This document shows, piece after piece, positions 339 through 10,854 of a DNA stretch of 10,854 nucleotides. Origin of the DNA: an uncultured Eubacteriales bacterium (GTDB taxonomy: Bacteria > Acidobacteriota > Aminicenantia > Aminicenantales > UBA8522). The position numbers and the translations under genes are program-made. The notes beneath the pieces are model-generated. The model saw only the letters and a program-made list of their open reading frames with translations, was not told the origin of the DNA and searched no databases. Position 1 is the stretch's first letter. The number at the start of each line of letters is the position of its first letter. The stretch spans positions 1-10,854 of the forward strand of contig CAYUKK010000176.1 of the NCBI GenBank assembly GCA_964445305.1, read 5' to 3'.

Positions 339-1370
339 ATGAACGCCCTCGTCCTGGTCTTCTCCCTCTTTTCTCGTCTTGCCTGTCGATTAAAGAACCT
401 TATCTACGATATTCACCTCCTTCGACCCGCACGAGCTCCGCTTCCGGTCGTTAGCATCGGCAGCGTTGCTATGGGAGGAACGGAGAAAACCCCTTTGGCC
501 ATGGAAATTCTCCGCTGGCTCCTCGAACGAGGGTATCGGCCCGCCCTCGTTTCTCGCGGTTATAAAGGCGGCTGGGAGAAAAAGGGGGGCGTCGTTTCGG
601 ACGGAAAATCGGTCCTTGCGACCTGGCAACAGGCGGGCGACGAGCCTTTCCTCATCGCCCAATCGGTTCGGGAAGCGGGCGTTTTTGTCGGCAAGAATCG
701 CCTCTCTTCCTGCCTTAGCGCCTTCAACCTCGGCTTCGATATCGCCGTCCTGGACGACGGCTTCCAGCACCGCCGCGTCGGCCGCGACCTCGATATCGCC
801 ATCTATCCCTCTCCCGAAATAAAAGTTCTCCGCGAGTCTCGCCAATCCCTCGGCCGCGCCGATATCATCCTCATCAAGACTTCGATTCAGAATCCGGCGC
901 TCCCATGGCTTCGGCCATCGCCGTTTTCCATTCGCCGCTCCTCAACCCTTCCCTCGGTCCGAGAAAATATCTTCCCTTACAGCGTTGAAGCCCAGGGAAT
1001 GTGGCAACTCTGGGAAGACAAGCCCCTTCCTCAGGTAGATTTAGAAGAAGTACCCCTGGTCGCTTTCTGCGGCATCGCCAGACCCGAGCGTTTTCTTTCC
1101 CTTCTCAAAACAACCGGAGCAAGGGTCGTTTCTTCCATTTTTTTCCCCGACCACTATCCCTACCCGGAATCGTCCATAGAAAAAATTCTTGCTCGGCTTA
1201 AAACTTCAGGCGCGTCAGCGGCCGTGACAACAGAAAAGGATGCGGTCAAAATCCTTGGCCACCGCGCTCGCTTTGGAAAAATCCCCGTTTATTATCTCAA
1301 GATCCGTGTCCATGTTGACCCCGGATTCTACGCCCATCTCGAAAATTTTTTAAAAAAAGCAGCCGGATAA
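339..1370 (+). CDS. lpxK: Tetraacyldisaccharide 4'-kinase (lipid A biosynthesis)
   Basis: 343-aa ORF with ATG start and GAAGG 7 nt upstream. P-loop motif PVVSIGSVAMGGTEKTP corresponds to E. coli LpxK PVVVVGNLTAGGNGKTP. Further matches are VSRGYKGG (VSRGYGG), LDDGFQH (TDDGLQH) and TTEKDAVK (MTEKDAVK). Hydrophobic N-terminus is consistent with a membrane anchor. Confidence 0.88.
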   Translation: MNALVLVFSLFSRLACRLKNLIYDIHLLRPARAPLPVVSIGSVAMGGTEKTPLAMEILRWLLERGYRPALVSRGYKGGWEKKGGVVSDGKSVLATWQQAGDEPFLIAQSVREAGVFVGKNRLSSCLSAFNLGFDIAVLDDGFQHRRVGRDLDIAIYPSPEIKVLRESRQSLGRADIILIKTSIQNPALPWLRPSPFSIRRSSTLPSVRENIFPYSVEAQGMWQLWEDKPLPQVDLEEVPLVAFCGIARPERFLSLLKTTGARVVSSIFFPDHYPYPESSIEKILARLKTSGASAAVTTEKDAVKILGHRARFGKIPVYYLKIRVHVDPGFYAHLENFLKKAAG

Positions 1371-1400
1371 AAAATTGAAGAGCGATAGATCATAACTCCT

Positions 1401-2360
1401 ATGAAATTTATAGAAACGATGGAAATAATAAAAAATTTACCCATAGAAATCGCCCTTCTCGCCTTCCGCTCCCTGTTTTTTGTCCTTCCCCGCCGTGTCT
1501 GCCTTTGTCTCGGCCAAATAGCCGGCCACCTCTTCTTCTCCTTTGACCTCCGTCACCGCCGCATTGCCCTGGCCAACATGGAAAAAGCCTTCGGCCTGGA
1601 GCTTCCCCCCTCCAAACGCTCCCGGCTTGTCCGTCAATCTTTCCTCCATTTCGGCCAAATGCTGGCCGATATCCTCAAGTGGTCATCCCTGAGTCAAGAA
1701 AAGAGAGAAGAACTGCTTCGAGTCGAGGGCGCCGAGAACATCCACCAAGCTTTGCGTCAGGGTCAGGGCATCCTTCTCTTCTCCGCTCACTTTGGCAACT
1801 GGGAAGTAGCCAGTGAGGCCCTGGCCAAGCTGGCTCCCCTTCATGTCGTGGCCCGTCCTCTCGACAGCCGCACCGCCGAAAAGGAGCTCCTCCGCTTCCG
1901 GTCAAGCCTCGGCGCAAGAATCATTTACAAGCACCAGGCGGCAAAGCCCATCCTCCAGGCTCTTCGCCGAAACGAAATGGTGGCCATCCTCATCGACCAG
2001 AATGTTCTCCGCAGTCAGGCCGTCTTCGTCGATTTCTTTGGCCTCCCTGCCGCCACCACTCCCAGCCTGGCCTCTTTCCATCTTCGAAGCCGTGCCCCCC
2101 TCCTCCCGGTTTTCTGCTATCCCACCTCTTCCCTCTCCTACCTCGTCAAGATCTTCCCCCCGCTCGATTTCAAGCCGAGCGGCGATTGGTCGGCCGACGT
2201 ATTGAAAATCACCCAGCATTCGACTAAGATGGTCGAAGCGGAGATCCGCCGCCGACCCGAGCTCTGGTTCTGGTTCCACGACCGCTGGAAAACGAGACCG
2301 CGGTCCGAGGTCGCCCCGTCCAAGACGCTGACGCCCGATATCCAAGGAAATAGAGCTTGA
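1401..2360 (+). CDS. lpxL: Lipid A biosynthesis acyltransferase, LpxL/HtrB (Kdo2-lipid IVA lauroyl/myristoyl acyltransferase) family
   Basis: 319-aa ORF starting 30 bp after lpxK. Hydrophobic N-terminal helix. SAHFGNWE matches the H-x4-E catalytic dyad region of the Lip_A_acyltrans family. Whether it is LpxL, LpxM or LpxP cannot be told by eye. Confidence 0.7.
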   Translation: MKFIETMEIIKNLPIEIALLAFRSLFFVLPRRVCLCLGQIAGHLFFSFDLRHRRIALANMEKAFGLELPPSKRSRLVRQSFLHFGQMLADILKWSSLSQEKREELLRVEGAENIHQALRQGQGILLFSAHFGNWEVASEALAKLAPLHVVARPLDSRTAEKELLRFRSSLGARIIYKHQAAKPILQALRRNEMVAILIDQNVLRSQAVFVDFFGLPAATTPSLASFHLRSRAPLLPVFCYPTSSLSYLVKIFPPLDFKPSGDWSADVLKITQHSTKMVEAEIRRRPELWFWFHDRWKTRPRSEVAPSKTLTPDIQGNRA

Positions 2361-2368
2361 GGCAGAGG

Positions 2369-3115
2369 ATGAGAGAAAAACGTGCCCCTGACGAATTAAG
2401 GCCCGTCAAGATTCAGCTTGATTATCTCGATTACGCCCACGGCTCGGCCTTCCTCGAAATCGGCAAGACGCGAGTCATCGCCGCCGCGACCGTCGACGAC
2501 AAAGTTCCGCCCTTCCTCAAGGGTATGGGCACGGGATGGGTGACGGCCGAATACGAAATGCTCCCCTGCTCGACCGAAAAAAGGACCATCCGCGAGAGAA
2601 CCCAGGGACGGATCTCGGGCCGAAGCCAGGAAATCCAGCGCCTCATCGGGCGGGCCCTCCGCGCCGCTACCGACCTCGATTCCCTGGGCGAGCGAACGGT
2701 CATCATCGACTGCGACGTCATCCAGGCCGACGGTGGCACCCGAGTCGCCTCCGTCACCGCCGGTTGCGTCGCTCTGGCCCTCGCCTTGAAAAAACTCCTC
2801 GATGAAAAGGTCATCGACCAGATGCCCCTTCGCCATCTCGTCTGTGGGGTGAGTGTCGGCATTGTCGACGGCCAGCCACTCCTCGACCTTGACTACAGCG
2901 AGGATTCCCAGGCTGCGCTCGATATGAACGTTGTCGAAACTGACGATGGGCATCTCGTTGAGGTCCAGGCCTCAGCCGAGAAAGCGCCGTTCTCCCGGAA
3001 GGACTTGGCATCGCTCCTCCGCCTTGCCGACAAGGGCATCAAGGAACTCATCCAAATCCAGAAGGCCGCTCTCAAGAAAAAAAGCCTCCTCTTCATGGCC
3101 TACGGCCGAAGTTGA
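2369..3115 (+). CDS. rph: Ribonuclease PH (tRNA nucleotidyltransferase)
   Basis: Near-colinear match to E. coli RNase PH throughout: DELRPVKI.., [57 protein letters not shown]....DL.Y.EDS.A..DMNVV. The true start is taken as ATG 2369 (GAGG 7 nt upstream) rather than the TTG 2357 reported by the ORF track. This leaves an 8-bp gap after the lpxL-family stop. Confidence 0.93.
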
Positions 3116-3134
3116 AGGGAAAAAGGAGGGAAGA

Positions 3135-4088
3135 ATGCGAAGGATTCTTGTCACCGGCGGGGCCGGCTTTCTCGGCAGCCACCTCTGCGAATACCTTCTC
3201 CGGGCGGGCGCGGACGTTGTCTGCGTCGATAACTTTTTTTCCGGGAGCAAGGACAACATCCGTCACCTCCTCGACCATCCCTACTTTGAGCTCATCCGCC
3301 ACGACGTCATCCACCCCCTCTTCCTCGAGGTAGACCAGATTTACCACCTCGCCTGCCCTGCTTCGCCCATCCACTACCAGCATAACCCCATCAAGACGGT
3401 CAAGACCAATGTCATGGGGACGATCAACATGCTCGGCCTGGCCAAGCGGATCAAGGCGCGCATCCTGCTCGCCTCTTCCTCGGAGGTTTACGGCGACGCC
3501 GAAGTCCATCCCCAGCCCGAAACCTACTGGGGAAATGTCAACCCCATCGGCCCCCGCAGCTGCTACGACGAAGGCAAGCGCGTGGCCGAGACACTGATGA
3601 TGGATTACTCCCGGCAGAACAATGTCGACATCCGCATCGCCCGCATCTTCAACACCTACGGCCCCCGCATGGCCATAAACGACGGCCGCGTCGTCAGCAA
3701 CTTCATTGTCCAGGCTCTTCGGGGCGAAAACCTGACTATCTATGGCGACGGCAAACAGACGCGCTCTTTCTGCTACGTCTCTGACCTCATCGAGGCGCTG
3801 GTGAAACTCATGAATAGCGAAGCAATCCGGACGCCGGTCAACCTGGGCAATCCCGTTGAATGCAGCGTTCTCGAGTTGGCCGAAATCATCCTCCGGCTCA
3901 CCCAAAGTTCATCGAGAATCGATTTCCGCCCCTTGCCCGCTGACGACCCGGCACGGCGTTGTCCCGACATTACGCTCGCCCGAGAAAAGCTGGGCTGGGA
4001 GCCCCGCGTGAGCCTGGAGGAAGGGCTTCAGAAGACGATCGCCTACTTCGAAGAAAAGCTTGAAATCAGGAACGGGCAAGGCCCGTAA
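3135..4088 (+). CDS. uxs: UDP-glucuronate decarboxylase (UDP-xylose synthase), extended-SDR NAD-dependent epimerase/dehydratase
   Basis: Start ATG 3135 ([16 protein letters not shown], Rossmann GxxGxxG) with AAGGAGGG RBS 5-12 nt upstream. The catalytic Y-x3-K is present as SCYDEGKR. Long stretches typical of UXS/ArnA-C-terminal decarboxylases are seen ([53 protein letters not shown]). The ORF-track N-extension from 2931 overlaps rph and is treated as an artefact. Confidence 0.85.
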
Positions 4089-4136
4089 GAATAGCTGGGC
4101 AAGACTTAGAAATGAGAAATAAAGGTCGAGATAAAT

Positions 4137-4168
4137 TTAGATAACGGGAATGCGAAGAAATAAAAAAT
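4137..4168 (+). promoter_or_regulatory. Candidate sigma70-like promoter in the AT-rich spacer upstream of the GT2 gene (TTAGAT-N18-TAAAAAAT)
   Basis: -35-like TTAGAT at 4137-4142 and an A/T-rich -10-like TAAAAA(AT) at 4161-4168. The surrounding 80 bp are strongly AT-rich relative to the ~60% GC context. A motif match only. Confidence 0.25.
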
Positions 4169-4173
4169 AAAGA

Positions 4174-4221
4174 GATGGATGGATAGATAGATGGATGGCC
4201 GGATGGATGGCCGGATGGATA
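4174..4221. repeat. Imperfect tetranucleotide tandem repeat, 12 units of GATR/GCCG (GATG GATG GATA GATA GATG GATG GCCG GATG GATG GCCG GATG GATA). It contains a 12-bp unit GATGGATGGCCG repeated 2.7x.
   Basis: Read directly from the sequence. 10 of 12 units are GAT[G/A]. It lies between the putative promoter and the GT2 start codon. Confidence 0.9.
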
Positions 4222-4294
4222 AACGAAGAATTTCTTGGCCAACGAAGAAAAAGACGGAGGACCAACAAAGGAAGAGGAAGAAACGGGGCGCCGG

Positions 4295-4981
4295 GTGAAG
4301 CTTTCGATCATTATTCCCGTTTACAATGAAGTTCGGACGATAGAAGAAATCCTCCGCCGCGTTCAATCGGTCGACGTCGGCCTGGACAAGGAGATCGTTG
4401 TCGTCGACGACGGCTCGACCGACGGCACCCGTGCCATTCTCGAGCGGCTCGCCTCGCCCGCCGTCAAAATCCTCTTCCACGCGAAGAATCAGGGCAAGGG
4501 CGCTGCCCTCCACACCGGTTTTGCGGCCGCCACCGGCGATATCCTCCTTGTTCAGGACGCCGACCTCGAGTACGACCCAAGAGAGTATCCCAAGCTCCTT
4601 GAGCCCATCCTGGACGGCCGGGCTGATGCCGTCTATGGCAGCCGTTTCCTCGGCGGTCCCCACCGCGTCCTCTTCTTCTGGCACTACGTCGGCAACCGCA
4701 TCATCACGACCCTCTCCAACATGCTGTCCAACCTCAACCTCACGGACATGGAAACATGCTACAAGGTCTTCAAAAGAGACATCATCCGCCAGATCAGCCT
4801 CAAGTCGAAGCGGTTCGGGTTTGAGCCGGAAATTACCCAAAAGCTGGCCAAGCTGAAATGCCGGGTCTATGAAGTCCCCATCTCTTACTCTGGCCGCGAT
4901 TATGCCGAGGGGAAAAAAATCACCTGGAAAGATGGCCTGGCCGCTATCTTCCACATCCTTCGCTTCCGCTTCTTCAATTGA
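4295..4981 (+). CDS. Family-2 glycosyltransferase, polyprenyl-phosphate sugar synthase type (DPM1/ArnC/GtrB-like)
   Basis: KLSIIIPVYNE..., VVVDDGSTDGT and QDADLEYDP (DxD) form the typical GT-A N-terminus of dolichyl/undecaprenyl-phosphate glycosyltransferases. Product is ~230 aa with no C-terminal TM segments, i.e. the short soluble DPM1-like form. The start is ambiguous: GTG 4295 (giving MKLSIIIP, with G-rich RBS-like sequence upstream) or the TTG at 4235 used by the ORF track. Confidence 0.8.
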   Translation: MKLSIIIPVYNEVRTIEEILRRVQSVDVGLDKEIVVVDDGSTDGTRAILERLASPAVKILFHAKNQGKGAALHTGFAAATGDILLVQDADLEYDPREYPKLLEPILDGRADAVYGSRFLGGPHRVLFFWHYVGNRIITTLSNMLSNLNLTDMETCYKVFKRDIIRQISLKSKRFGFEPEITQKLAKLKCRVYEVPISYSGRDYAEGKKITWKDGLAAIFHILRFRFFN

Positions 4982-5231
4982 CAGCCTCCTCATCCCTCGC
5001 CCAATTCCTCATCGGCCTCGAGCCTTCGAGCCAGGGTCGTTTCCTCATTGACAGCGTTCAGGACGCCGTTGACCTTGAGCGGAGGCCGCACGATCTCACC
5101 CCCTAACGTTTTGTTTCTTTACGGCGTGGCCCAAAATTGCCCATAGGAAATGACGATCGACACAATACGCTTGCCTTTCTTACGGATAGGCGAGATAGGG
5201 AACGCACTTGAGGCGTGGCGTCGCGGGCGGC

Positions 5232-5260
5232 TTGACTTTCCTTTGGCCATAAATATATTA
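5232..5260 (+). promoter_or_regulatory. Strong sigma70-like promoter for the flotillin gene: TTGACT-N16-TATATT
   Basis: -35 TTGACT at 5232-5237 (5/6 consensus) and -10 TATATT at 5254-5259 (5/6), with a 16-bp spacer, in an AT-rich patch. The predicted ~80-nt 5'UTR contains a GTTTCG-caat-CGAAAC stem-loop (5283-5298) and a GGAGGAGG RBS (5333-5340) 5 nt before the ATG at 5346. Confidence 0.5.
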
Positions 5261-5345
5261 TTTTTATTTCATTTAGCTACTTGTTTCGCAATCGAAACGG
5301 GCGAGTCATCTCCACGACCAAAGGAATGATTCGGAGGAGGTCATC

Positions 5346-6755
5346 ATGAGCCTTGTCTCCTGGCTTATCATCATCGGCATCATCGTCGTCCTCCTGGCAC
5401 TCATCATCATCGTTCTGGCCATCCAGTACCGCAAGGTCGGGCCTAACGAAGTCTTGATTATCTCGGGCGGCCGGAAGAGGACGGTCACTGCTCCGGACGG
5501 GACCAAAGTCAAGGTCGGCTACCGCTACCGCCTTGGCGGCGGCACATTTGTCATCCCCTTTGTCGAAACCGTCTACACCCTCCCCCTCGACGTCGTCACC
5601 CTGAACATCCGCACCCCTGAAGTCCTGACCCACAGCGGTGTGCCCATCATGGCTGAGGCCACGGCTCAGGTCAAAATCGATTCCTCGGACTCAGCCATCC
5701 GGCTGGCAGCCGAACAGTTCCTGGGCACGGGAAAAGAGGGTATTCGGGATGTCTCCCTCAACGTCCTCGAGGGGAAGATGCGGGAAGTTATCGGCACCAT
5801 GACCGTCGAGGAGATTTACCGCGGCCGTCATGAGTTCAATTCTCGCGTCGCTGAGGCCATCCGTGACGATTTCGCCCGCATGGGCTTGGTCATGCTCTCC
5901 TTCACCCTCAAGGACATCAGCGATACCCAGGGCTACCTGGATTCCCTGAGCAAGCCGCAAATCGCTGCTGCCAAGAGGGACGCCGCCATCGCTGAGGCCG
6001 AAACCGAGAAAGAAGCAGTCATCAAGTCCTCCCAGGCGCGCAAAGAGGCAGAGGTGGCCCGCCTCGCCGCTGAAGCCCTTATCGCCAAGGCCCAATGGGA
6101 AAACGAGGCCAAAAAAGCAGAATCCCAGGTCGCCGTCAACCAGAAGAAAGCCCAGGCCGATTTCTCCTACGAGCTCGAACGGTTCCGCCTCAGCCAGCAG
6201 ATCAAGAAAGAAGAGGCCAAGATGAAGGCCATCGAGAAGGAGGAGGCCATCAAGATCGAAGAGCTCGAAATCGCCCGGCGCGAGAAAGAGCTCGAATCGA
6301 GCGTCATCAAGCCGGCCGACGCCCGCAAGTACCAGATCAAGGCCGAAGCAGAAGCCGAGGAATTCCGCATCCAGGCCGAAGCCAAAGGTAAAGCTGAGGC
6401 TCTCCGCCTCGAGGGTGAAACCGAAGCCGAACTCTTGAAAAAGAAGGGCATGGCCGAGGCCGAGGCGATGCTGAAGAAGGCCCAGGCCTGGGAAAAGTAC
6501 AATCAGGCCGCCATCCTGGAAATGTACTTCCATATCCTTCCCGAGCTGGCCAAAGCCGTCTCCGAGCCGCTCTCCAAAGTGGATAAAATCGTCGTCGTCG
6601 GTGGCGGCGACAAGAGTCTCGGCACGACCAAGATCACGGCCCAGGTGGCTGAAATCCTTTCCCAGATGCCCGAGGTCGTCAAGTCCTTGACCGGAGTTGA
6701 CCTCAAGAAATACCTGAAGGAAAAGCTGACGCCGGAAGAAAAAGAAGAGAAATAG
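5346..6755 (+). CDS. floT: Flotillin-like SPFH/band-7 membrane scaffold protein (FloT/YuaG-type)
   Basis: N-terminal TM helix [20 protein letters not shown] followed by [15 protein letters not shown] (flotillin signature entry into the SPFH domain). It has a long C-terminal coiled coil with E/A/K-rich flotillin repeats ([43 protein letters not shown]). 469 aa. Confidence 0.85.
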
Positions 6756-6785
6756 CCTCCCGGAAGGCCCAAGGAGAGGCACGCC

Positions 6786-9131
6786 ATGATTTCAGAGAAA
6801 GCGAACCAAATCGGCACATCCCCCACCCTCAAGATTACGGCCAAGGCCAAGGCCATGAAGGCCGAGGGGATTGACATCATCGATTTGAGCGTCGGCGAAC
6901 CGGATTTCCCCACGCCCGAGAATGCAAAGGCGGCCGGGATTCGGGCCATCCAGCAGAATTTCACCAAGTATACGGAAAACGAAGGTATCCCGGCGCTCAA
7001 GAAAGCCATCATCGCCAGGATGAAGGAGGATTATGGCCTCGCCTATGAGATGAACGAGGTCATCGTCTCGACGGGCGCTAAAAGCTCGCTCTTCCTCCTC
7101 ATCCAGGCCCTGGTTAATGACGGGGAGGAAGTTATCATCCCCGCCCCCTACTGGGTGACTTACCCTCAGGCAGTCGTGCTGGCCAAAGGCAAGCCCGTTA
7201 TCATCCCGACCAAGGAGGAAAATGGCTTTCTTCTTACGCCCGAGGAGCTCAAGGCGGCCATTTCCCCGGCGACCAAAGCCCTCATCCTCAACAATCCCTC
7301 CAACCCAACCGGCGCTGCCTATTCCAGGGCTCAGCTCGAAGCTTTGGTTGATGTCATTCGCGGCGAGGACCTTTATGTTATCGCCGATGAAATCTACGCC
7401 AAGCTCATTTTCGATGGCTTCGAGTTTGTGAGCTTCCCCTCCCTCGGCGAGGACATCAAAGCCAAGACCATCCTTATCAGCGGCGTCTCCAAGTCCTACT
7501 CCATGACCGGCTGGCGGATAGGGTTTGCTCTGGGGCCGGCCGAAATCATCAACGCCATGGCTAAAATCCAGAGCCATTCAACCTCCAACCCTTGCTCCAT
7601 CTCCCAGCAAGCCAGCCTGGAAGCTCTGACCGGGCCGCAGCATGAGGTCGCCCGCATGGCCGCTGAATTCCAGCGCCGGCGCAACTACTGCCTGATGCGG
7701 CTCAACGCCATCCCCAATATCTCCTGTTTCAAGCCCCGGGGCGCTTTCTACCTCTTCCCCAATTTCTCGGCTTATTATGAAAAAGAGGCGGGCGGTGTTC
7801 TCATCCGGAATTCCTACGGCCTGGCCTACTACCTGCTCAAGGAAGCGAAAGTGGCCATCGTCCCGGGCGATTCTTTTGGCGCGGATAATTACATCCGTCT
7901 TTCCTACGCCACATCGATGGAGAACCTGGAGAAAGGGATGGACCGGATTATCGAGGCCGTCTCCAAGCTCAAGACGCCGAAGAAAATCAAGCGGGTCGCC
8001 CTCAACAACACCATCACTCGAGTGAAGAGAGCTGTGCCCGTTGACGCATCCCTGCCGACCAAGATGCGCGATGCTCTCGTCGCCGAGATGGAGGGACATC
8101 TTCCCGTCGAGAACTACTACGAATGGAACGCCAACATCGCGGGAATCGTCGTCCAGCTTCGAACGAATGTTGCGCACCTCTATGATTTCTGGGTCGAGAA
8201 CTGGTTTCCGGCCCAGCTCGAAGCGGATATCGAGCCCCACGGCATCATTTATGCTGTGGATGGAGTCGCCGGTCGGGAGCCGAGAGCTTTTTACAACTCC
8301 GAGACAAAGACAGGGGTCCTCGTCAACACGGATAACTACGGCCCGTTGCGGAGCCTCGCCCTTGGTCTGGTCATGGATGTCACGGAAAGGCTCTACGGCG
8401 CCTGCGCTATCCGCGGCATGGCCGCCGCTGTCGAGGACAACGGCCGAGGCCTTATCCTCGTCGGACCGCCTGGAACGCGGAAGACCGAGCTCTTCTTCGA
8501 GCTCCTCGAGGATAAGCGGTTCAAAATCCAGGCTAACGAAATCATTCTTGTCCGGGCCGCGGGCGGAAAGGCGCAAGCGGAATGCGTCGAGAGAAAGCTT
8601 TATATGCCGACGAATACGGTCGAGAACTTCTCGCGCCTGGCGCCTCTTTTTGACGCGAGCAAGTGCGAAAACGTTGTCATCCACAAGGACGGATGCCAGG
8701 ATGAGGCTTGCCTCAGGGGCGAAGATTGCCGCCTCGACCGGGGGTCTCCCTTCTGCTACAAGGCCTCCAAAGAAGCGCATGCCATGCTCGACCCCAACTG
8801 GATTGGGGGCAAAAGTGCCCACGCCAGACGGACGACCCTGAGCTGGATATTCTTTCTCCGCTATGACCCGTCATCGCCGGCTGCTGTCCGCCTGGAGAAG
8901 GAGGAAGCGCTGCGCATCCTTGAATCGGGCGAAGCGTTAGGTTTGAAGAAAGCCCTCTCTCCGGCCAAACCACAGCCTTACTACAACCCCCACCTTTTGG
9001 TGACGACGGAGGAACGGCTGGAGCTCCAGAAAGCGTTCTTCAGCCGATTGCTGGATATCGTCCCCTGCTATCTGTTCAACAGCGGCGTGGCCGGCGCCGA
9101 GACAATAAAGCAACTGACCGCGGGCGAATAG
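6786..9131 (+). CDS. Fusion protein of 781 aa. Residues ~1-400 are a class-I PLP-dependent aspartate (aspartate/prephenate) aminotransferase. Residues ~400-781 are a domain resembling the HPr kinase/phosphorylase C-terminal P-loop kinase fold.
   Basis: N-terminal half: NNPSNPTG, the SGVSKSYSMTGWRIG PLP-lysine motif (Lys236, nt 7491-7493) and a C-terminal IRLSYA.S region, all typical of the AspAT-Ib subgroup. C-terminal half: GRGLILVGPPGTRKTELFFELLEDKRFKIQANEIILV aligns in spacing to HprK [36 protein letters not shown]. A later EEALRILESGEA matches HprK EETLRILDTEI. The reading frame is continuous with no stop, and no RBS precedes the internal Met427, so a genuine fusion is favoured. RBS AAGGAGAGG precedes ATG 6786, which lies 30 bp after the flotillin stop. 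Confidence 0.8.
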   Translation: MISEKANQIGTSPTLKITAKAKAMKAEGIDIIDLSVGEPDFPTPENAKAAGIRAIQQNFTKYTENEGIPALKKAIIARMKEDYGLAYEMNEVIVSTGAKSSLFLLIQALVNDGEEVIIPAPYWVTYPQAVVLAKGKPVIIPTKEENGFLLTPEELKAAISPATKALILNNPSNPTGAAYSRAQLEALVDVIRGEDLYVIADEIYAKLIFDGFEFVSFPSLGEDIKAKTILISGVSKSYSMTGWRIGFALGPAEIINAMAKIQSHSTSNPCSISQQASLEALTGPQHEVARMAAEFQRRRNYCLMRLNAIPNISCFKPRGAFYLFPNFSAYYEKEAGGVLIRNSYGLAYYLLKEAKVAIVPGDSFGADNYIRLSYATSMENLEKGMDRIIEAVSKLKTPKKIKRVALNNTITRVKRAVPVDASLPTKMRDALVAEMEGHLPVENYYEWNANIAGIVVQLRTNVAHLYDFWVENWFPAQLEADIEPHGIIYAVDGVAGREPRAFYNSETKTGVLVNTDNYGPLRSLALGLVMDVTERLYGACAIRGMAAAVEDNGRGLILVGPPGTRKTELFFELLEDKRFKIQANEIILVRAAGGKAQAECVERKLYMPTNTVENFSRLAPLFDASKCENVVIHKDGCQDEACLRGEDCRLDRGSPFCYKASKEAHAMLDPNWIGGKSAHARRTTLSWIFFLRYDPSSPAAVRLEKEEALRILESGEALGLKKALSPAKPQPYYNPHLLVTTEERLELQKAFFSRLLDIVPCYLFNSGVAGAETIKQLTAGE

Positions 9132-9141
9132 GCTGAGCCTC

Positions 9142-9178
9142 GTCTTGCCAGCGGCAGCGACCCGATCTCTCTTTTTTC
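9142..9178 (+). terminator. Weak candidate intrinsic terminator after the fusion gene
   Basis: Imperfect GC hairpin (GUC-UUGCC-agc-GGCAG-c-GAC, 9142-9161) is followed about 10 nt later by CTCTCTTTTTTCT (9166-9178). The stem is bulged and the T-run is distal, so the call is weak. Confidence 0.2.
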
Positions 9179-9362
9179 TACCCCTTCATCGAGGTCATAG
9201 CAGACCTGGATCAAATTACGAACTTCAAAATCTTTTCTGACCACAAAATATACCTCTCTCCCTTGACTATTTTTCCAGAAAAATACTTCTCCTCCCTTCA
9301 GCCCTCTCCTTAACAGATCCAGGAAAACAAGATTTTCACATAGCCATTCTTTCAAAATAGTC

Positions 9363-9938
9363 CTAATTAGATTTATCCGAAAAGAGGCGGTTCTCGAGGG
9401 CTTCAGCCAGAAGGTGAAGGAGGAGAAGATGGACCTCCTGGACGCGAGGTGTGGAAGTCGAGGGAACATCGAGAAGATAATCGGATAGGGAGGCGAGCCT
9501 ACCACCGCCCTGGCCGGTCATGGCCACCGTCAGCATCCCTTTCTGGCGGGCCGCTTTGAGGCCCTCGACGATGTTGACTGAGGTCCCGCTTGTCGAAAGA
9601 GCGAGAGCAATATCCCCTTTGTCGCCGAGCGCCTCAATCTGCCGGCTGAAAACGTAATCATAAGACGAATCATTGGCCACAGAGGTAAGAGTCGACGTAT
9701 CAGTCGTCAGGGCGATCGCCCGCATGGGTTGTCTTATGCGGAGGAATTTGTTGACGAGTTCCGCGGCAAAGTGCTGGGCCTCAGCCGCGCTCCCGCCGTT
9801 GCCGAAAACGAGGATTTTCCGGCCCTCCCCAAGGGCCCTGGCGACGGCCTCGATCATGACCTCAAAGAGGTCACTCTTCTGCTCGAAAAAATTCTTGAGG
9901 ATAGCATGAATATCAACCTGAATGTATCCATATTTCAT
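9363..9938 (-). CDS. gmhA: Phosphoheptose isomerase (D-sedoheptulose-7-phosphate isomerase), SIS domain; LPS core heptose pathway
   Basis: 191 aa. [20 protein letters not shown] matches GmhA [47 protein letters not shown] matches [27 protein letters not shown]. The QEVHLLLLH region matches QEIHIKVIH. RBS AAGGAG lies 6 nt upstream of the ATG on the − strand. Confidence 0.9.
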   Translation of the reverse strand: [191 protein letters not shown]

Positions 9939-9974
9939 CGCCTGCTCCTTAGGTCTCGCTTATTTCCTTTGACC

Positions 9975-10003
9975 ATTATAACCTATTCCCACACATCCCG
10001 GAT
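9975..10003 (-). promoter_or_regulatory. Candidate gmhA promoter: perfect -10 TATAAT (− strand, + coordinates 9975-9980) with a poor -35
   Basis: The − strand reads GGTTATAATGG about 37 nt upstream of the gmhA ATG. No good TTGACA-like hexamer sits 16-18 bp upstream (ATCCGG/TGATCC). A hexamer match only. Confidence 0.3.
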
Positions 10004-10042
10004 CATTATTTCCTCTCGCTATCTCCACGGGAGTACTTCCAT

Positions 10043-10069
10043 GAAGAAAAGCTATGTCCTTTTTTCTTC
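10043..10069. other. 8-bp inverted repeat GAAGAAAA-(11 nt)-TTTTCTTC in the plsC-family/gmhA intergenic region
   Basis: Arms at 10043-10050 and 10062-10069, read directly. It is located between the acyltransferase stop (10168) and the gmhA promoter candidate. It could be an operator, or the terminator hairpin of the upstream − strand gene. No U-tract follows on the − strand. Confidence 0.3.
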
Positions 10070-10167
10070 GTGGCATTCCTCCTTCAAGAGGCAAATTTCA
10101 GGACTCTGAGCTTTCACCGTCAAAATGGATTCGGCTTTAAGGCCGTCCCGGCGAGTGCTTCCTTCGG

Positions 10168-10854
10168 TCAATTGCGAAGTCCTGATTCAATAGCGGCCTT
10201 GACTCTTTCGATCAACACCGACATGTTGCTCTGGTCATATCCCTCGACCGGAATGGGCGGATGGAAAAGCACATGGATGAGCCCCCGTCGTGTTGAAAAC
10301 CTTCCCCGCGGCATGAGTTCATACGTTCCCCTGATGGTGACGGGCACAATCGGCGTCCGGCTTTCCAGAGCGAGAAAAAAGCCGCCGCGCTTGAAAGCCT
10401 GGAGGCGGCCATCCCGGCTCCTCGTTCCCTCGGGAAAAATAAGGAAGGAATAGCGGCGGCGGCGCATGAGCTGGATGGCTTTGTCAATACTCCGCTTGCC
10501 CCCCCACATCTTCTTCCTGTCGACAGGAATGAAGCCGACGTATTTCATGCCCACGCCGATGATCGGAATCCGGAACACTTCTTTTTTGAGGATGACCCGG
10601 ATGGGTCGGGGGATGAGCCAGAAGAGCAGGGGTCCGTCGAGGAAGCTCAAATGGTTGGCCATGAAGACATAAGGAGCTCGGCGATCCAATCGCTCCCGGC
10701 CAGAGACCTCGACCTTGAGCCCGAGAATACGGCAACCGAGGCTCATCGCCCACTTGGCAATCCGGAGGAGAGGGTCGCGAACGCCGAACGGCCAGAAGAG
10801 GAGGAGCAAGAGGAAAAGAAATATCGTCAGGAGAGCATAGATGAGGAGGAGAAT
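10168..10854 (-). CDS. 1-acyl-sn-glycerol-3-phosphate acyltransferase (PlsC/LPLAT family). The 5' end lies outside the window.
   Basis: Two LPLAT-family acyltransferase motifs are present: FMANHLSFLDGPLL (H-x4-D block) and FPEGTRSRDG. The ORF track's TTG at 10809 is not a real start. Translating the − strand to the window edge continues without a stop through a hydrophobic segment (ILLLIYALLTIFLFLLLLFWPF), so the gene is truncated by the window. Confidence 0.75.
   Translation of the reverse strand: MLLLIYALLTIFLFLLLLLFWPFGVRDPLLRIAKWAMSLGCRILGLKVEVSGRERLDRRAPYVFMANHLSFLDGPLLFWLIPRPIRVILKKEVFRIPIIGVGMKYVGFIPVDRKKMWGGKRSIDKAIQLMRRRRYSFLIFPEGTRSRDGRLQAFKRGGFFLALESRTPIVPVTIRGTYELMPRGRFSTRRGLIHVLFHPPIPVEGYDQSNMSVLIERVKAAIESGLRN

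What the first reader, a model, noticed from the sequence alone, without database searches (positions are those of the whole stretch)
8463..8756. Degenerate Walker A (GPPGTRKTE) and a 5-cysteine insert in the kinase-like domain
The P-loop reads G-P-P-G-T-R-K-T-E. It keeps the Lys-Thr and the following Glu of HprK (GDSGIGKSE) but replaces the second conserved Gly with Arg. About 60 residues later there is a cluster C-x9-C-x4-C-x5-C-x8-C (KCENVVIHKDGCQDEACLRGEDCRLDRGSPFCY, nt 8664-8756) that has no counterpart in HprK. The HprK ADD motif is replaced by ANE. Together these suggest a pseudokinase or a metal-dependent (Zn or Fe-S) variant with altered nucleotide handling.
Basis: seen in the sequence. 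Interest (0 to 1): 0.5.

Follow-up and report, generated by a model that had tools for sequence, protein, structure and literature searches.

The report
Aspartate aminotransferase fused to PEPCK-like domain
The odd phosphate-binding loop and the cysteine cluster are real, conserved features of an uncharacterised, compact PEP-carboxykinase-like domain (not an HPr kinase) that is fused to the aspartate aminotransferase across the candidate phylum Aminicenantes, probably tying aspartate metabolism to the oxaloacetate/PEP node.

Summary
GPPGTRKTE lies at nt 8463-8489, and the Cys pattern C-x9-C-x4-C-x5-C-x8-C lies at nt 8664-8756. Both sit in one 781-aa ORF (6786-9131, +) made of a class I/II aspartate aminotransferase plus a 381-aa C-terminal domain with no Pfam or NCBIfam family.

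The fusion is a single ORF in all 69 relative loci with enough contig to show the whole gene, nearly all Aminicenantes, in conserved synteny. In 70 orthologues (window included) the four insert Cys are invariant and C227 is present in 66 of 70. The P-loop Gly position is never Gly (K49, R12, N8, Q1). K166, R143, E202-R203-K204 and E228-N229 are invariant, and T167 is 68/70.

Against PEPCK, the Mn2+ ligands and partners are remodelled: H232→R, K212/K213→R/S, D268→N, R333→variable. Stand-alone relatives keep the canonical set.

Best reading (about 0.4): a still-functional, arginine-rich PEPCK-derived site working on oxaloacetate/PEP beside the aminotransferase, with a structural Cys4 metal knuckle. 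Main rival (about 0.33): an allosteric sensor pseudoenzyme.

The parts
6786..9131 (+). Single ORF of 781 aa: aspartate aminotransferase fused to a PEPCK-fold domain
   Evidence: It is one ORF of 779-816 aa in all 69 relative loci with enough contig to show the whole gene.
6873..7949 (+). Aminotransferase class I/II domain (aa 30-388), aspartate-transaminase type
   Evidence: PF00155 E 1.7e-79. The best NCBIfam hit is aspartate transaminase NF004769 at 443.6 bits, below its equivalog cut-off of 617.
7971..8105 (+). Linker and N-terminal strand of the C-domain, with conserved motif L-x-N-x-x-T-R-x-K (aa 396-440)
   Evidence: N408 and T411 are invariant and L406 is 90% or more conserved in A3. 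pLDDT is 89-92 for residues 11-30 of the domain model. The motif is also readable in stand-alone relatives. Equivalence to the PEPCK R65 loop is a guess only.
7986..9128 (+). Compact PEPCK-fold domain (381 aa), with no Pfam or NCBIfam family
8349..8354 (+). R122-S123, aligned to PEPCK K212-K213 (K213 is a Mn2+ ligand)
   Evidence: R122 is 69/70. Stand-alone relatives have Lys here.
8412..8414 (+). R143, aligned to PEPCK H232 (Mn2+ ligand) and to the HprK His
   Evidence: It is 70/70 Arg in orthologues. It is His in 41 relatives, most of them stand-alone.
8463..8489 (+). Walker A / kinase-1a loop GPPGTRKTE. R165 replaces the second Gly (PEPCK G253). K166 and T167 match K254 and T255.
8532..8540 (+). 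A-N-E, the kinase-2 position (PEPCK G267-D268-D269; HprK ADD)
   Evidence: N184 is 61/70 and D/E185 is 70/70.
8589..8597 (+). E202-R203-K204, an invariant family motif (E202 aligns to PEPCK E282)
   Evidence: All three are 70/70.
8661..8675 (+). Core motif K-C227-E-N-V (PEPCK L-L-E311-N312-V). C227 is specific to the fused clade.
8694..8756 (+). Four-Cys insert C237-x4-C242-x5-C248-x8-C257, enlarging the PEPCK hairpin that precedes the R333 loop
   Evidence: All four Cys are 70/70. The insert is present or absent as a block among stand-alone relatives. pLDDT is 74-85.
8778..8780 (+). H265, at the position of PEPCK R333
   Evidence: It is variable in orthologues (H41, Y9, F6, Q6, R3, S2, V2, M1). 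It is Arg wherever position 165 is Gly (44 of 45).

Best explanation
SHOWN:
- nt 7986-9128 encode a compact version (381 aa against about 540) of the two-lobed PEP-carboxykinase fold. It is permanently fused to the C-terminus of the syntenically conserved aspartate aminotransferase gene of Candidatus Aminicenantes.
- The non-Gly Walker A (K, R, N or Q at position 165), R143, R122, N184 and the four-Cys insert are fixed, clade-wide features under purifying selection.
- Stand-alone relatives and a few basal fused ones keep the canonical PEPCK set (Lys, His, G-x-G-K-[ST], D-D, Arg).

INFERRED (mechanism I commit to):
- The ancestor of the fusion was an active mini-PEPCK-type enzyme coupled to the aminotransferase through oxaloacetate (Asp + 2-oxoglutarate <-> oxaloacetate + Glu; oxaloacetate + phosphoryl donor <-> PEP + CO2).
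- In the Aminicenantes lineage the M1 (Mn2+) site was replaced by two arginines. The catalytic Arg of the R333 loop was given up at the same node at which the P-loop gained Lys/Arg.
- The result is a cationic, probably M1-metal-free site. It still binds a phosphoryl group through K166/T167 with D/E185, and still acts on the oxaloacetate/PEP pair next to the aminotransferase.
- The PEPCK adenine loop is missing, so the phosphoryl donor need not be ATP.
- The Cys4 insert is most likely a structural metal (Zn-type) knuckle. It stiffens the enlarged hairpin that leads into the former R333 loop.
- C227, next to E228-N229, may be a separate active-site or redox-sensitive thiol.
For: Fold:
- Foldseek top 35 hits are all ATP-PEPCK, TMq 0.60-0.75.

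Homology chain:
- The family profile finds stand-alone relatives. These hit the PEPCK model NF006821 at E 3.5e-18 to 3e-08.
- hhalign to E. coli PckA gives 97.9% probability.

Fusion and selection:
- One ORF in all 69 relative loci with enough contig to show the whole gene.
- 452 species genomes encode a relative.
- Synteny is conserved.
- Mean pairwise identity is 69% for the C-domain against 76% for the aminotransferase.

Retained residues: K166, D/E185, E202, R203, K204, E228 and N229 are 70/70, and T167 is 68/70.

Order of changes: H143->R lies on a branch subtending 149 leaves. G165->non-Gly and R265->non-Arg both lie on the branch subtending 125 leaves.

Other points:
- Basal fused proteins with His, Gly and Arg exist, for example P0082.
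- An intein sits inside the Walker A of relative P0198, as is typical of functionally critical sites.
- The metabolic logic (the aminotransferase product is the PEPCK substrate) is established biochemistry.
Against: - No activity or ligand has been tested.
- Two of the three Mn2+ ligands of PEPCK are Arg/Ser here, D268 is Asn, and the R333 position is unconstrained. The canonical PEPCK mechanism therefore cannot operate as such.
- The first roughly 110 residues of PEPCK, including the oxaloacetate-binding R65 loop, are not alignable. The adenine-binding loop is deleted.
- At least one fused lineage (P0121) has a wrecked P-loop, HAPNVKKER.
- The gene neighbourhood is cell-envelope and housekeeping, not carbon metabolism.
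- The 165/265 association rests on essentially one evolutionary event.
- The metal in the Cys4 site is unknown.
- The same Cys spacing occurs in disulfide-rich eggshell CREMP repeats.
Confidence: 0.4

Rival explanations
1. Allosteric sensor pseudoenzyme. The PEPCK-derived domain has lost catalysis. It now only binds a metabolite of the PEP/oxaloacetate/nucleotide pool through the Lys/Arg-rich pocket and tunes the fused aminotransferase or its oligomeric state.
For: - Canonical catalytic residues are replaced (H232->R, K213->S/R, D268->N) or unconstrained (the R333 position is H, Y, F, Q, R, S, V or M).
- Position 165 tolerates K, R, N and Q.
- The P-loop is destroyed in the fused P0121, and in a stand-alone subgroup that still keeps the Cys4 module.
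- P0135 carries a degenerate copy in front of a complete PEPCK_ATP domain.
- There is a precedent. The PTA-like domain fused to malic enzymes has no PTA activity but mediates acetyl-CoA regulation (PMC8100219, read).
Against: - Conservation of the C-domain (69%) is nearly that of the enzyme domain (76%).
- A large set of polar cleft residues is invariant, including P-loop Lys, the D269-equivalent acid and E-R-K; T167 is 68/70.
- The Arg replacements are themselves invariant, which is not what decay looks like.
Confidence: 0.33
2. HprK/P-like or peptide-kinase-like protein kinase/phosphorylase. The domain phosphorylates a Ser on a protein, perhaps the aminotransferase itself, using ATP or PPi.
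For: - The only sequence-level hits of the window's domain are HprK-type. These are HprK chains at E 0.017-0.03 around the P-loop and TIGR04352 at E 0.025.
- G-x-x-G-x-x-K-T-E resembles the HprK motif G-x-S-G-x-G-K-S-E.
- PF07475 is precomputed on two relatives.
Against: - All scores are far below family cut-offs (13.7 against 200 bits; the best PF07475 hit among the relatives scanned is 21.1 bits against 33.3).
- Stand-alone relatives hit PEPCK models at E 1e-18.
Confidence: 0.08
3. Redox or Fe-S variant. The Cys cluster, with or without C227, binds an Fe-S cluster or forms reversible disulfides that switch the domain according to redox state.
For: - Four invariant Cys plus a fifth at 66/70 sit next to E228-N229.
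- Some lineages swap Cys for His (C242H in P0052 and P0053), as metal sites do.
- The hosts are uncultured Aminicenantes.
Against: - The spacing C-x4-C-x5-C-x8-C is not a classical Fe-S motif.
- The four-Cys block is gained and lost as a unit without other changes, which is typical of structural knuckles.
- A Zixibacteria-type subgroup lost C237 and C242 but kept the rest of the domain.
- No spectroscopic or coordinate evidence is available.
Confidence: 0.12
4. Artefact or meaningless drift: a sequencing error or lineage-specific decay.
For: Some database relatives are frameshifted or truncated (P0018, P0051, P0110).
Against: The same features recur in 70 independent genomes with an intact ORF.
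Confidence: 0.01

Closest known systems
ATP-dependent phosphoenolpyruvate carboxykinase (PckA; Pfam PF01293; e.g. E. coli 1aq2, T. cruzi 1ii2, T. thermophilus 2pc9)
   Same: - The alignable motifs are Y-G...K (207-213), S-x-H-x-x-A (232), G-x-x-G-x-G-K-T (248-255), x-D-D (268-269), E-x-x-x-Y (282-286), E-N-V (311-313) and N-T-G.
- The fusion partner makes its substrate, oxaloacetate.
   Different: - It is 381 aa against about 540 aa.
- The first roughly 110 residues (R65 loop) and the adenine loop W-N-G-T-G-K-R are missing or not alignable.
- The substitutions are H232->R, K212/K213->R/S, G253->R/K, D268->N and R333->H or variable.
- It carries an extra Cys4 insert.
- The window's domain has no PF01293 hit.
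HPr kinase/phosphorylase (HprK/P; PF07475, TIGR00679) and HprK-related kinases A/B (TIGR04352, TIGR04355)
   Same: - It shares the P-loop subdomain of the PEPCK-like superfamily.
- It has local sequence similarity around x-[HR]-G-x(8-11)-G-x-x-G-x-x-K-[ST]-E and the following [DN]-[DE].
   Different: - The HprK N-terminal domain and capping motif are absent.
- Scores are far below the cut-offs.
PPi-dependent PEPCK (P. freudenreichii 8e1u) and GTP-PEPCK (9e32)
   Different: They are much larger proteins (1126 and 605 aa), and there is no sequence-level match.
Malic enzyme with a fused, inactive phosphotransacetylase-like domain (PMC8100219)
   Same: A central-metabolism enzyme carries a C-terminal enzyme-derived domain from a neighbouring reaction.
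   Different: The folds are unrelated. It is cited only as a precedent for the regulatory-domain rival.

Membership tests
HprK/P (PF07475 / TIGR00679) | Family HMM above the curated cut-off | tested here: not met
   There is no PF07475 hit at E<=1 for the window's domain. The only hit is TIGR04352 at 13.7 bits against a cut-off of 200.
HprK/P (PF07475 / TIGR00679) | Walker A G-x-S-G-x-G-K-S-E followed by the A-D-D motif | tested here: not met
   The window reads G-P-P-G-T-R-K-T-E and A-N-E. Lys, Thr and Glu are kept. The second Gly and the first Asp are not.
HprK/P (PF07475 / TIGR00679) | The best structural match is HprK over the whole domain | tested here: not met
   [not shown]
PEPCK-like fold superfamily | Two-lobed PEPCK fold with a P-loop nucleotide lobe | tested here: met
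   [not shown]
ATP-PEPCK (PF01293, PckA) | Family HMM above the curated cut-off | tested here: not met
   The window's domain has no hit. Stand-alone relatives reach only 18-65 bits against cut-offs of 26.5 (Pfam) and 369 (NF006821).
ATP-PEPCK (PF01293, PckA) | Kinase-1a loop G-x-x-G-x-G-K-T | tested here: not met
   The second Gly (G253) is Arg here. It is K, R, N or Q in 70/70 orthologues. K254 and T255 are kept.
ATP-PEPCK (PF01293, PckA) | Mn2+ (M1) ligands K213, H232 and D269 | tested here: not met
   hhalign gives S123 (or R122), R143 and E185. Only the acid is kept.
ATP-PEPCK (PF01293, PckA) | Substrate and phosphate arginines R65 and R333 | tested here: inconclusive
   R333 aligns to H265, which is variable in orthologues. 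The R65 region is not aligned by hhalign. A T-R-x-K motif in the N-terminal strand is only a visual resemblance.
ATP-PEPCK (PF01293, PckA) | Adenine-binding loop (R449 region) | tested here: not met
   A six-residue deletion falls at W-N-G-T-G-K, and R449 aligns to V368.
ATP-PEPCK (PF01293, PckA) | Catalyses oxaloacetate + ATP <-> PEP + CO2 + ADP | not testable with these tools
   This needs an enzyme assay.
Aspartate aminotransferase class I/II (PF00155) | Family HMM above the cut-off, with the PLP-Lys motif | tested here: met
   PF00155 scores 268 bits against a cut-off of 19.7. The motif S-K-S-Y-S-M-T-G-W-R is present. The aspartate-specific equivalog cut-off is not reached (443.6 against 617).
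Structural Zn(Cys)4 knuckle | Four Cys converging on one metal | not testable with these tools
   The four Cys are invariant, but the model coordinates could not be read. No metal prediction was possible.

The most novel reading that the evidence does not exclude
The fusion is a two-step aspartate <-> PEP machine in which a 380-residue mini-PEPCK works without the canonical Mn2+ site. Two invariant arginines and a Lys/Arg in the P-loop take over the roles of the metal and of R333. Because the adenine loop is missing, it may use a non-nucleotide donor such as PPi. A Cys4 metal or redox module gates the active-site loop. This would be a new mechanistic class of PEP carboxykinase and the main oxaloacetate/PEP link of a whole candidate phylum.
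Probability: 0.15. Interest if true: 0.85.

Novelty: new variant of a known kind. Interest (0 to 1): 0.6.

Why it matters
- **Annotation gap.** Public annotation calls these proteins only 'PLP-dependent aminotransferase' or 'hypothetical'. Half of a core gene, conserved in synteny across the Aminicenantes genomes retrieved and present in Zixibacteria and other uncultured lineages, therefore has no assigned function or family.
- **If the domain is catalytic.** It would define the smallest PEPCK-type enzyme known, with a metal site replaced by arginines. It would also be a natural example of substrate hand-over between transamination and the PEP/oxaloacetate node, and it would change metabolic reconstructions of these abundant sediment bacteria.
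- **If the domain is a sensor.** It would be a clean case of an enzyme turned into an allosteric module, with living intermediates (stand-alone canonical forms and basal fused forms) that allow the path to be reconstructed.
- **Testability.** Either outcome can be tested directly with one recombinant protein.

Tried and rejected
1. Selenocysteine or programmed recoding as the reason many database relatives are 'partial' or split. Rejected. The aberrant entries (P0018, P0051, P0110) show out-of-frame stretches or contig ends, and 69 genome loci have one clean ORF.
2. Full-length AF2 model to see how the two domains face each other. The model is poor (pLDDT 71, pTM 0.51, aminotransferase half below 50) because the alignment is shallow there. 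It gave no information.
3. Measuring Cys-Cys distances. Model coordinates are not exposed to the script tool.
4. The afdb50 fold library was unavailable.
5. Exact look-up of the window's protein in public assemblies found nothing on record.
6. Sequence searches of the PDB with the domain or its profile gave only P-loop-level hits.
7. Genomic context of stand-alone relatives. There is no consistent neighbourhood: glutamine amidotransferase-like, radical SAM, ndk/yicC/gmk, panD-panB-panC, and ABC/cobalt transport.
8. The ScmC/SynChlorMet lead (PF27840 weak hit). NCBIfam gives only E 0.02-0.07, so I dropped it.
9. Literature searches for the fusion or for PEPCK in Aminicenantes found nothing relevant.
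10. Covariation of P-loop position 165 with position 265. The association is strong in raw counts, but parsimony on an NJ tree shows only 6-7 changes and one dominant shared branch. It is not statistical evidence of coupling.
11. The CREMP eggshell repeat match of the Cys module. The spacing is the same, but per-repeat E-values are 5.8-28. I treat it as composition-driven resemblance.
Full report
**Observation.** The finding lies inside a 781-aa ORF (nt 6786-9131, +). I number the C-terminal domain from nt 7986.
- The P-loop G160-P-P-G-T-R165-K-T-E168 occupies nt 8463-8489.
- A-N-E is at nt 8532-8540.
- The five Cys (227, 237, 242, 248, 257) span nt 8664-8756 with the stated spacing C-x9-C-x4-C-x5-C-x8-C.
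- Five of the protein's 11 Cys fall in 31 residues. Only 58 of 20000 shuffles reach this.

**What the gene is.** Residues 30-388 are a class I/II aminotransferase (PF00155, E 1.7e-79). The best NCBIfam models are aspartate transaminases. The last 381 residues match no Pfam or NCBIfam family. The only hit is TIGR04352 (HprK-related kinase A) at E 0.025, 13.7 bits against a cut-off of 200, over the P-loop. Sequence searches of the PDB give only P-loop-level hits. With the family profile, HprK chains reach E 0.017-0.03 over about 60 residues.

**Fold.** An AlphaFold2 model built on 38 homologues is confident (pLDDT 89, pTM 0.88).
- Foldseek agrees. The first 35 hits are all ATP-PEPCK (E down to 8e-18, TMq 0.60-0.75), followed by GTP-PEPCK.

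The domain is therefore a compact version of the whole two-lobed PEPCK fold, not an HprK-type kinase domain.

**Homology chain.** A profile search of 1.84 billion representatives found 339 relatives. They include stand-alone proteins of about 320-570 aa. These carry canonical motifs: S-I-H-G-A, A-P-T-G-T-G-K-S-T, H-S-D-D-W, S-E-R-K, E-N-V and N-S-R. They hit the PEPCK subfamily model NF006821 at E 3.5e-18 to 3e-08, far below its cut-off. hhalign of the combined family alignment against E. coli PckA gives 97.9% probability, E 3e-13, over query 15-380 and PckA 89-463.

The residue map is as follows. E. coli numbering and residue roles are from my own knowledge of the PEPCK literature. PDB titles for the K213S, D269N, R65Q, K254S and Y207F mutants appear.

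| E. coli PckA | Window domain |
|---|---|
| K212 / K213 | R122 / S123 |
| H232 | R143 |
| G248-T255 | G160-T167 (G253->R165, K254->K166, T255->T167) |
| D268 / D269 | N184 / E185 |
| E282 | E202 |
| E311 / N312 | E228 / N229 |
| R333 | H265 |

The adenine loop W-N-G-T-G-K-R is deleted, and the first roughly 110 residues of PckA (with R65) are not aligned.

**Distribution and selection.** A scan of one genome per species found 452 genomes with a relative. The best 80 are almost all Candidatus Aminicenantes. In all 69 loci with enough contig to show the whole gene, it is one ORF of 779-816 aa containing both domains. The synteny LpxK - acyltransferase - RNase PH - UDP-sugar decarboxylase-type - glycosyltransferase - flotillin - fusion - GmhA - PlsC is conserved. 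The fusion therefore sits in a conserved core-gene block of the Aminicenantes genomes retrieved.

Across 70 orthologues including the window:
- Mean pairwise identity is 75.9% for the aminotransferase, 63.6% for the linker and 69.3% for the PEPCK-like domain.
- Invariant (70/70): G160, G163, K166, R143, R190, E202, R203, K204, E228, N229, D269, N334, N365 and the four Cys 237, 242, 248 and 257.
- Near-invariant: R122 at 69/70, T167 at 68/70, C227 at 66/70.
- Position 165 is K49, R12, N8, Q1 and never Gly.
- Position 184 is N in 61 of 70. Position 185 is D61, E9.
- Position 265 is unconstrained (H41, Y9, F6, Q6, R3, S2, V2, M1).

**Two states of the active site.** Over 195 family members the residues sort into two sets.
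- The canonical PEPCK-like set is K122 / H143 / G165 / D184-D185 / R265. It is found mostly in stand-alone proteins.
- The derived set is R122 / R143 / K-or-R165 / N184-[DE]185 / non-Arg265. It is found in the Aminicenantes-type fusion.
- Intermediates exist, including fused proteins that still have His, Gly and Arg, such as P0082.

Raw counts for positions 165 and 265 are K/R with non-R 109, G with R 44, K/R with R 7, and G with non-R 1. On a neighbour-joining tree with Fitch parsimony, H143->R maps to a branch subtending 149 leaves. G165->non-Gly and R265->non-Arg map to the same later branch of 125 leaves. There are only 6-7 changes at each site in all. The association is thus one main historical event, not statistical covariation.

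What it does show is an ordered remodelling. Two of the three Mn2+ ligands became Arg/Ser first. The P-loop then gained a basic residue at the node where the R333-type Arg was released from constraint.

**The cysteine cluster.** Four of the five Cys (237, 242, 248, 257) belong to a block that is present or absent as a unit among stand-alone relatives. It is present with the spacing C-x4..8-C ... C-x8-C in P0124, P0132, P0139 and P0147. The whole segment is deleted in P0123, P0125, P0133 and P0135.

Relative to E. coli PckA, the block enlarges the hairpin between E-N-V (311-313) and the R333 loop by about 16 residues. Some lineages replace Cys by His (P0052, P0053). A Zixibacteria-type subgroup lost C237 and C242. 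C227 is different. It sits in the core motif K-C-E-N-V next to the conserved E228-N229, and it is specific to the fused clade.

Invariance, block-wise gain and loss, and Cys-to-His swaps fit a structural metal knuckle best. The only PDB sequence match of the segment is to the four-Cys repeats of an eggshell membrane protein with the same spacing. The per-repeat E-values of 5.8-28 are not significant.

**Mechanism.**

Shown:
- The domain has the PEPCK fold.
- It is permanently fused to an aspartate-type aminotransferase.
- It is under strong purifying selection.
- It retains the phosphate-binding Lys/Thr and the D269-type acid.
- It has lost or replaced the Mn2+ ligands, D268, R333 and the adenine loop.

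Inferred:
- The aminotransferase makes and uses oxaloacetate, which is the PEPCK substrate. The fusion therefore most likely began as a two-step aspartate <-> oxaloacetate <-> PEP enzyme.
- I commit, at about 0.4, to the reading that the Aminicenantes domain is still a working site. It would be arginine-rich, probably free of the M1 metal, and not necessarily ATP-dependent, and it would act on the oxaloacetate/PEP pair, with the Cys4 insert as a structural metal knuckle.
- The main rival, at about 0.33, is that it has become an allosteric sensor. This is the case for the inactive PTA-like domain fused to malic enzymes (PMC8100219).
- Three observations support that rival: the unconstrained position 265, the wrecked P-loop of the fused P0121, and the degenerate copy in front of a complete PEPCK in P0135.
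- An HprK-like protein kinase role is unlikely (about 0.08). A redox or Fe-S role for the Cys is possible (about 0.12) and is compatible with either main reading. Artefact is excluded.

**Comparison and novelty.** The domain belongs to the PEPCK-like fold superfamily (tested and met). It fails the membership tests for HprK/P and for bona fide ATP-PEPCK: family HMMs, the second P-loop Gly, the Mn2+ ligands and the adenine loop.

Public annotations name these proteins only as aminotransferases or hypothetical proteins. One stand-alone cluster carries an automatic 'ATP-dependent PEPCK' label. Five literature searches found no description of the fusion. I class it as a new variant of a known kind: an undescribed family of compact PEPCK-derived domains with a remodelled active site and a Cys4 insert.

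Interest is 0.6. They point to a core gene, conserved across the Aminicenantes genomes retrieved, whose second half has no known function and can be tested directly.

Noticed in passing
window 339-10809; loci L008-L087: The gene order LpxK - lipid A acyltransferase - RNase PH - UDP-sugar decarboxylase-type - GT2 - flotillin - fusion - GmhA(-) - PlsC(-) is conserved across dozens of Aminicenantes genomes. Flotillin is directly upstream in 72 of 80 loci.
   Followed up: partly
window 9068-9505 (-): This 145-aa ORF has only the C-terminal end of DUF4143 (E 1.8e-4). It overlaps the 3' end of the fusion gene and of gmhA, and looks like a remnant of an ATPase gene. Relatives have a variable gap of 0-2 kb between the fusion and gmhA at this spot.
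   Followed up: partly
L005 8001-10700 (protein P0135, 899 aa): A relative carries a copy of the mini-domain with a destroyed P-loop (GSSENDIAT) and no Cys insert. It is fused in front of a complete PEPCK_ATP domain (E 1.9e-48). The same gene was seen on three contigs.
   Followed up: partly
protein P0198 (754 aa): A stand-alone relative has an intein (PF14890, E 1.5e-16) inserted exactly inside the Walker A: APTGTGK | intein | STSS.
   Followed up: partly
window 8691-8765; PDB 9pgb_A: The Cys module shares its exact spacing (C-x4-C-x5-C-x8-C) and its Gly/Pro positions with the repeats of a cysteine-rich eggshell membrane protein. Each repeat match is individually insignificant.
   Followed up: partly
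proteins P0155, P0193, P0200, P0206, P0230, P0256: This stand-alone subgroup has lost the P-loop entirely (e.g. CSDAAVLSA) and the His and Asp-Asp motifs, yet keeps the four-Cys module. It is a probable pseudoenzyme branch.
   Followed up: no
L088 1229-5406 (protein P0273): A stand-alone canonical relative lies directly downstream of panD (aspartate 1-decarboxylase), panB and panC. This is another link to aspartate metabolism, seen on one contig only.
   Followed up: no
proteins P0018, P0051, P0110 and many 'partial' entries: Public gene calls of this fusion are often frameshifted, split or truncated, even on long contigs. Databases therefore under-represent the full-length architecture.
   Followed up: partly
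proteins P0085, P0086, P0095, P0102 (Zixibacteria-type): This subgroup has the P-loop G-P-K-G-[ML]-K-R-G-S (Lys replaced by Arg plus an extra Gly). It has lost C237 and C242 and keeps Arg at the R333 position.
   Followed up: no
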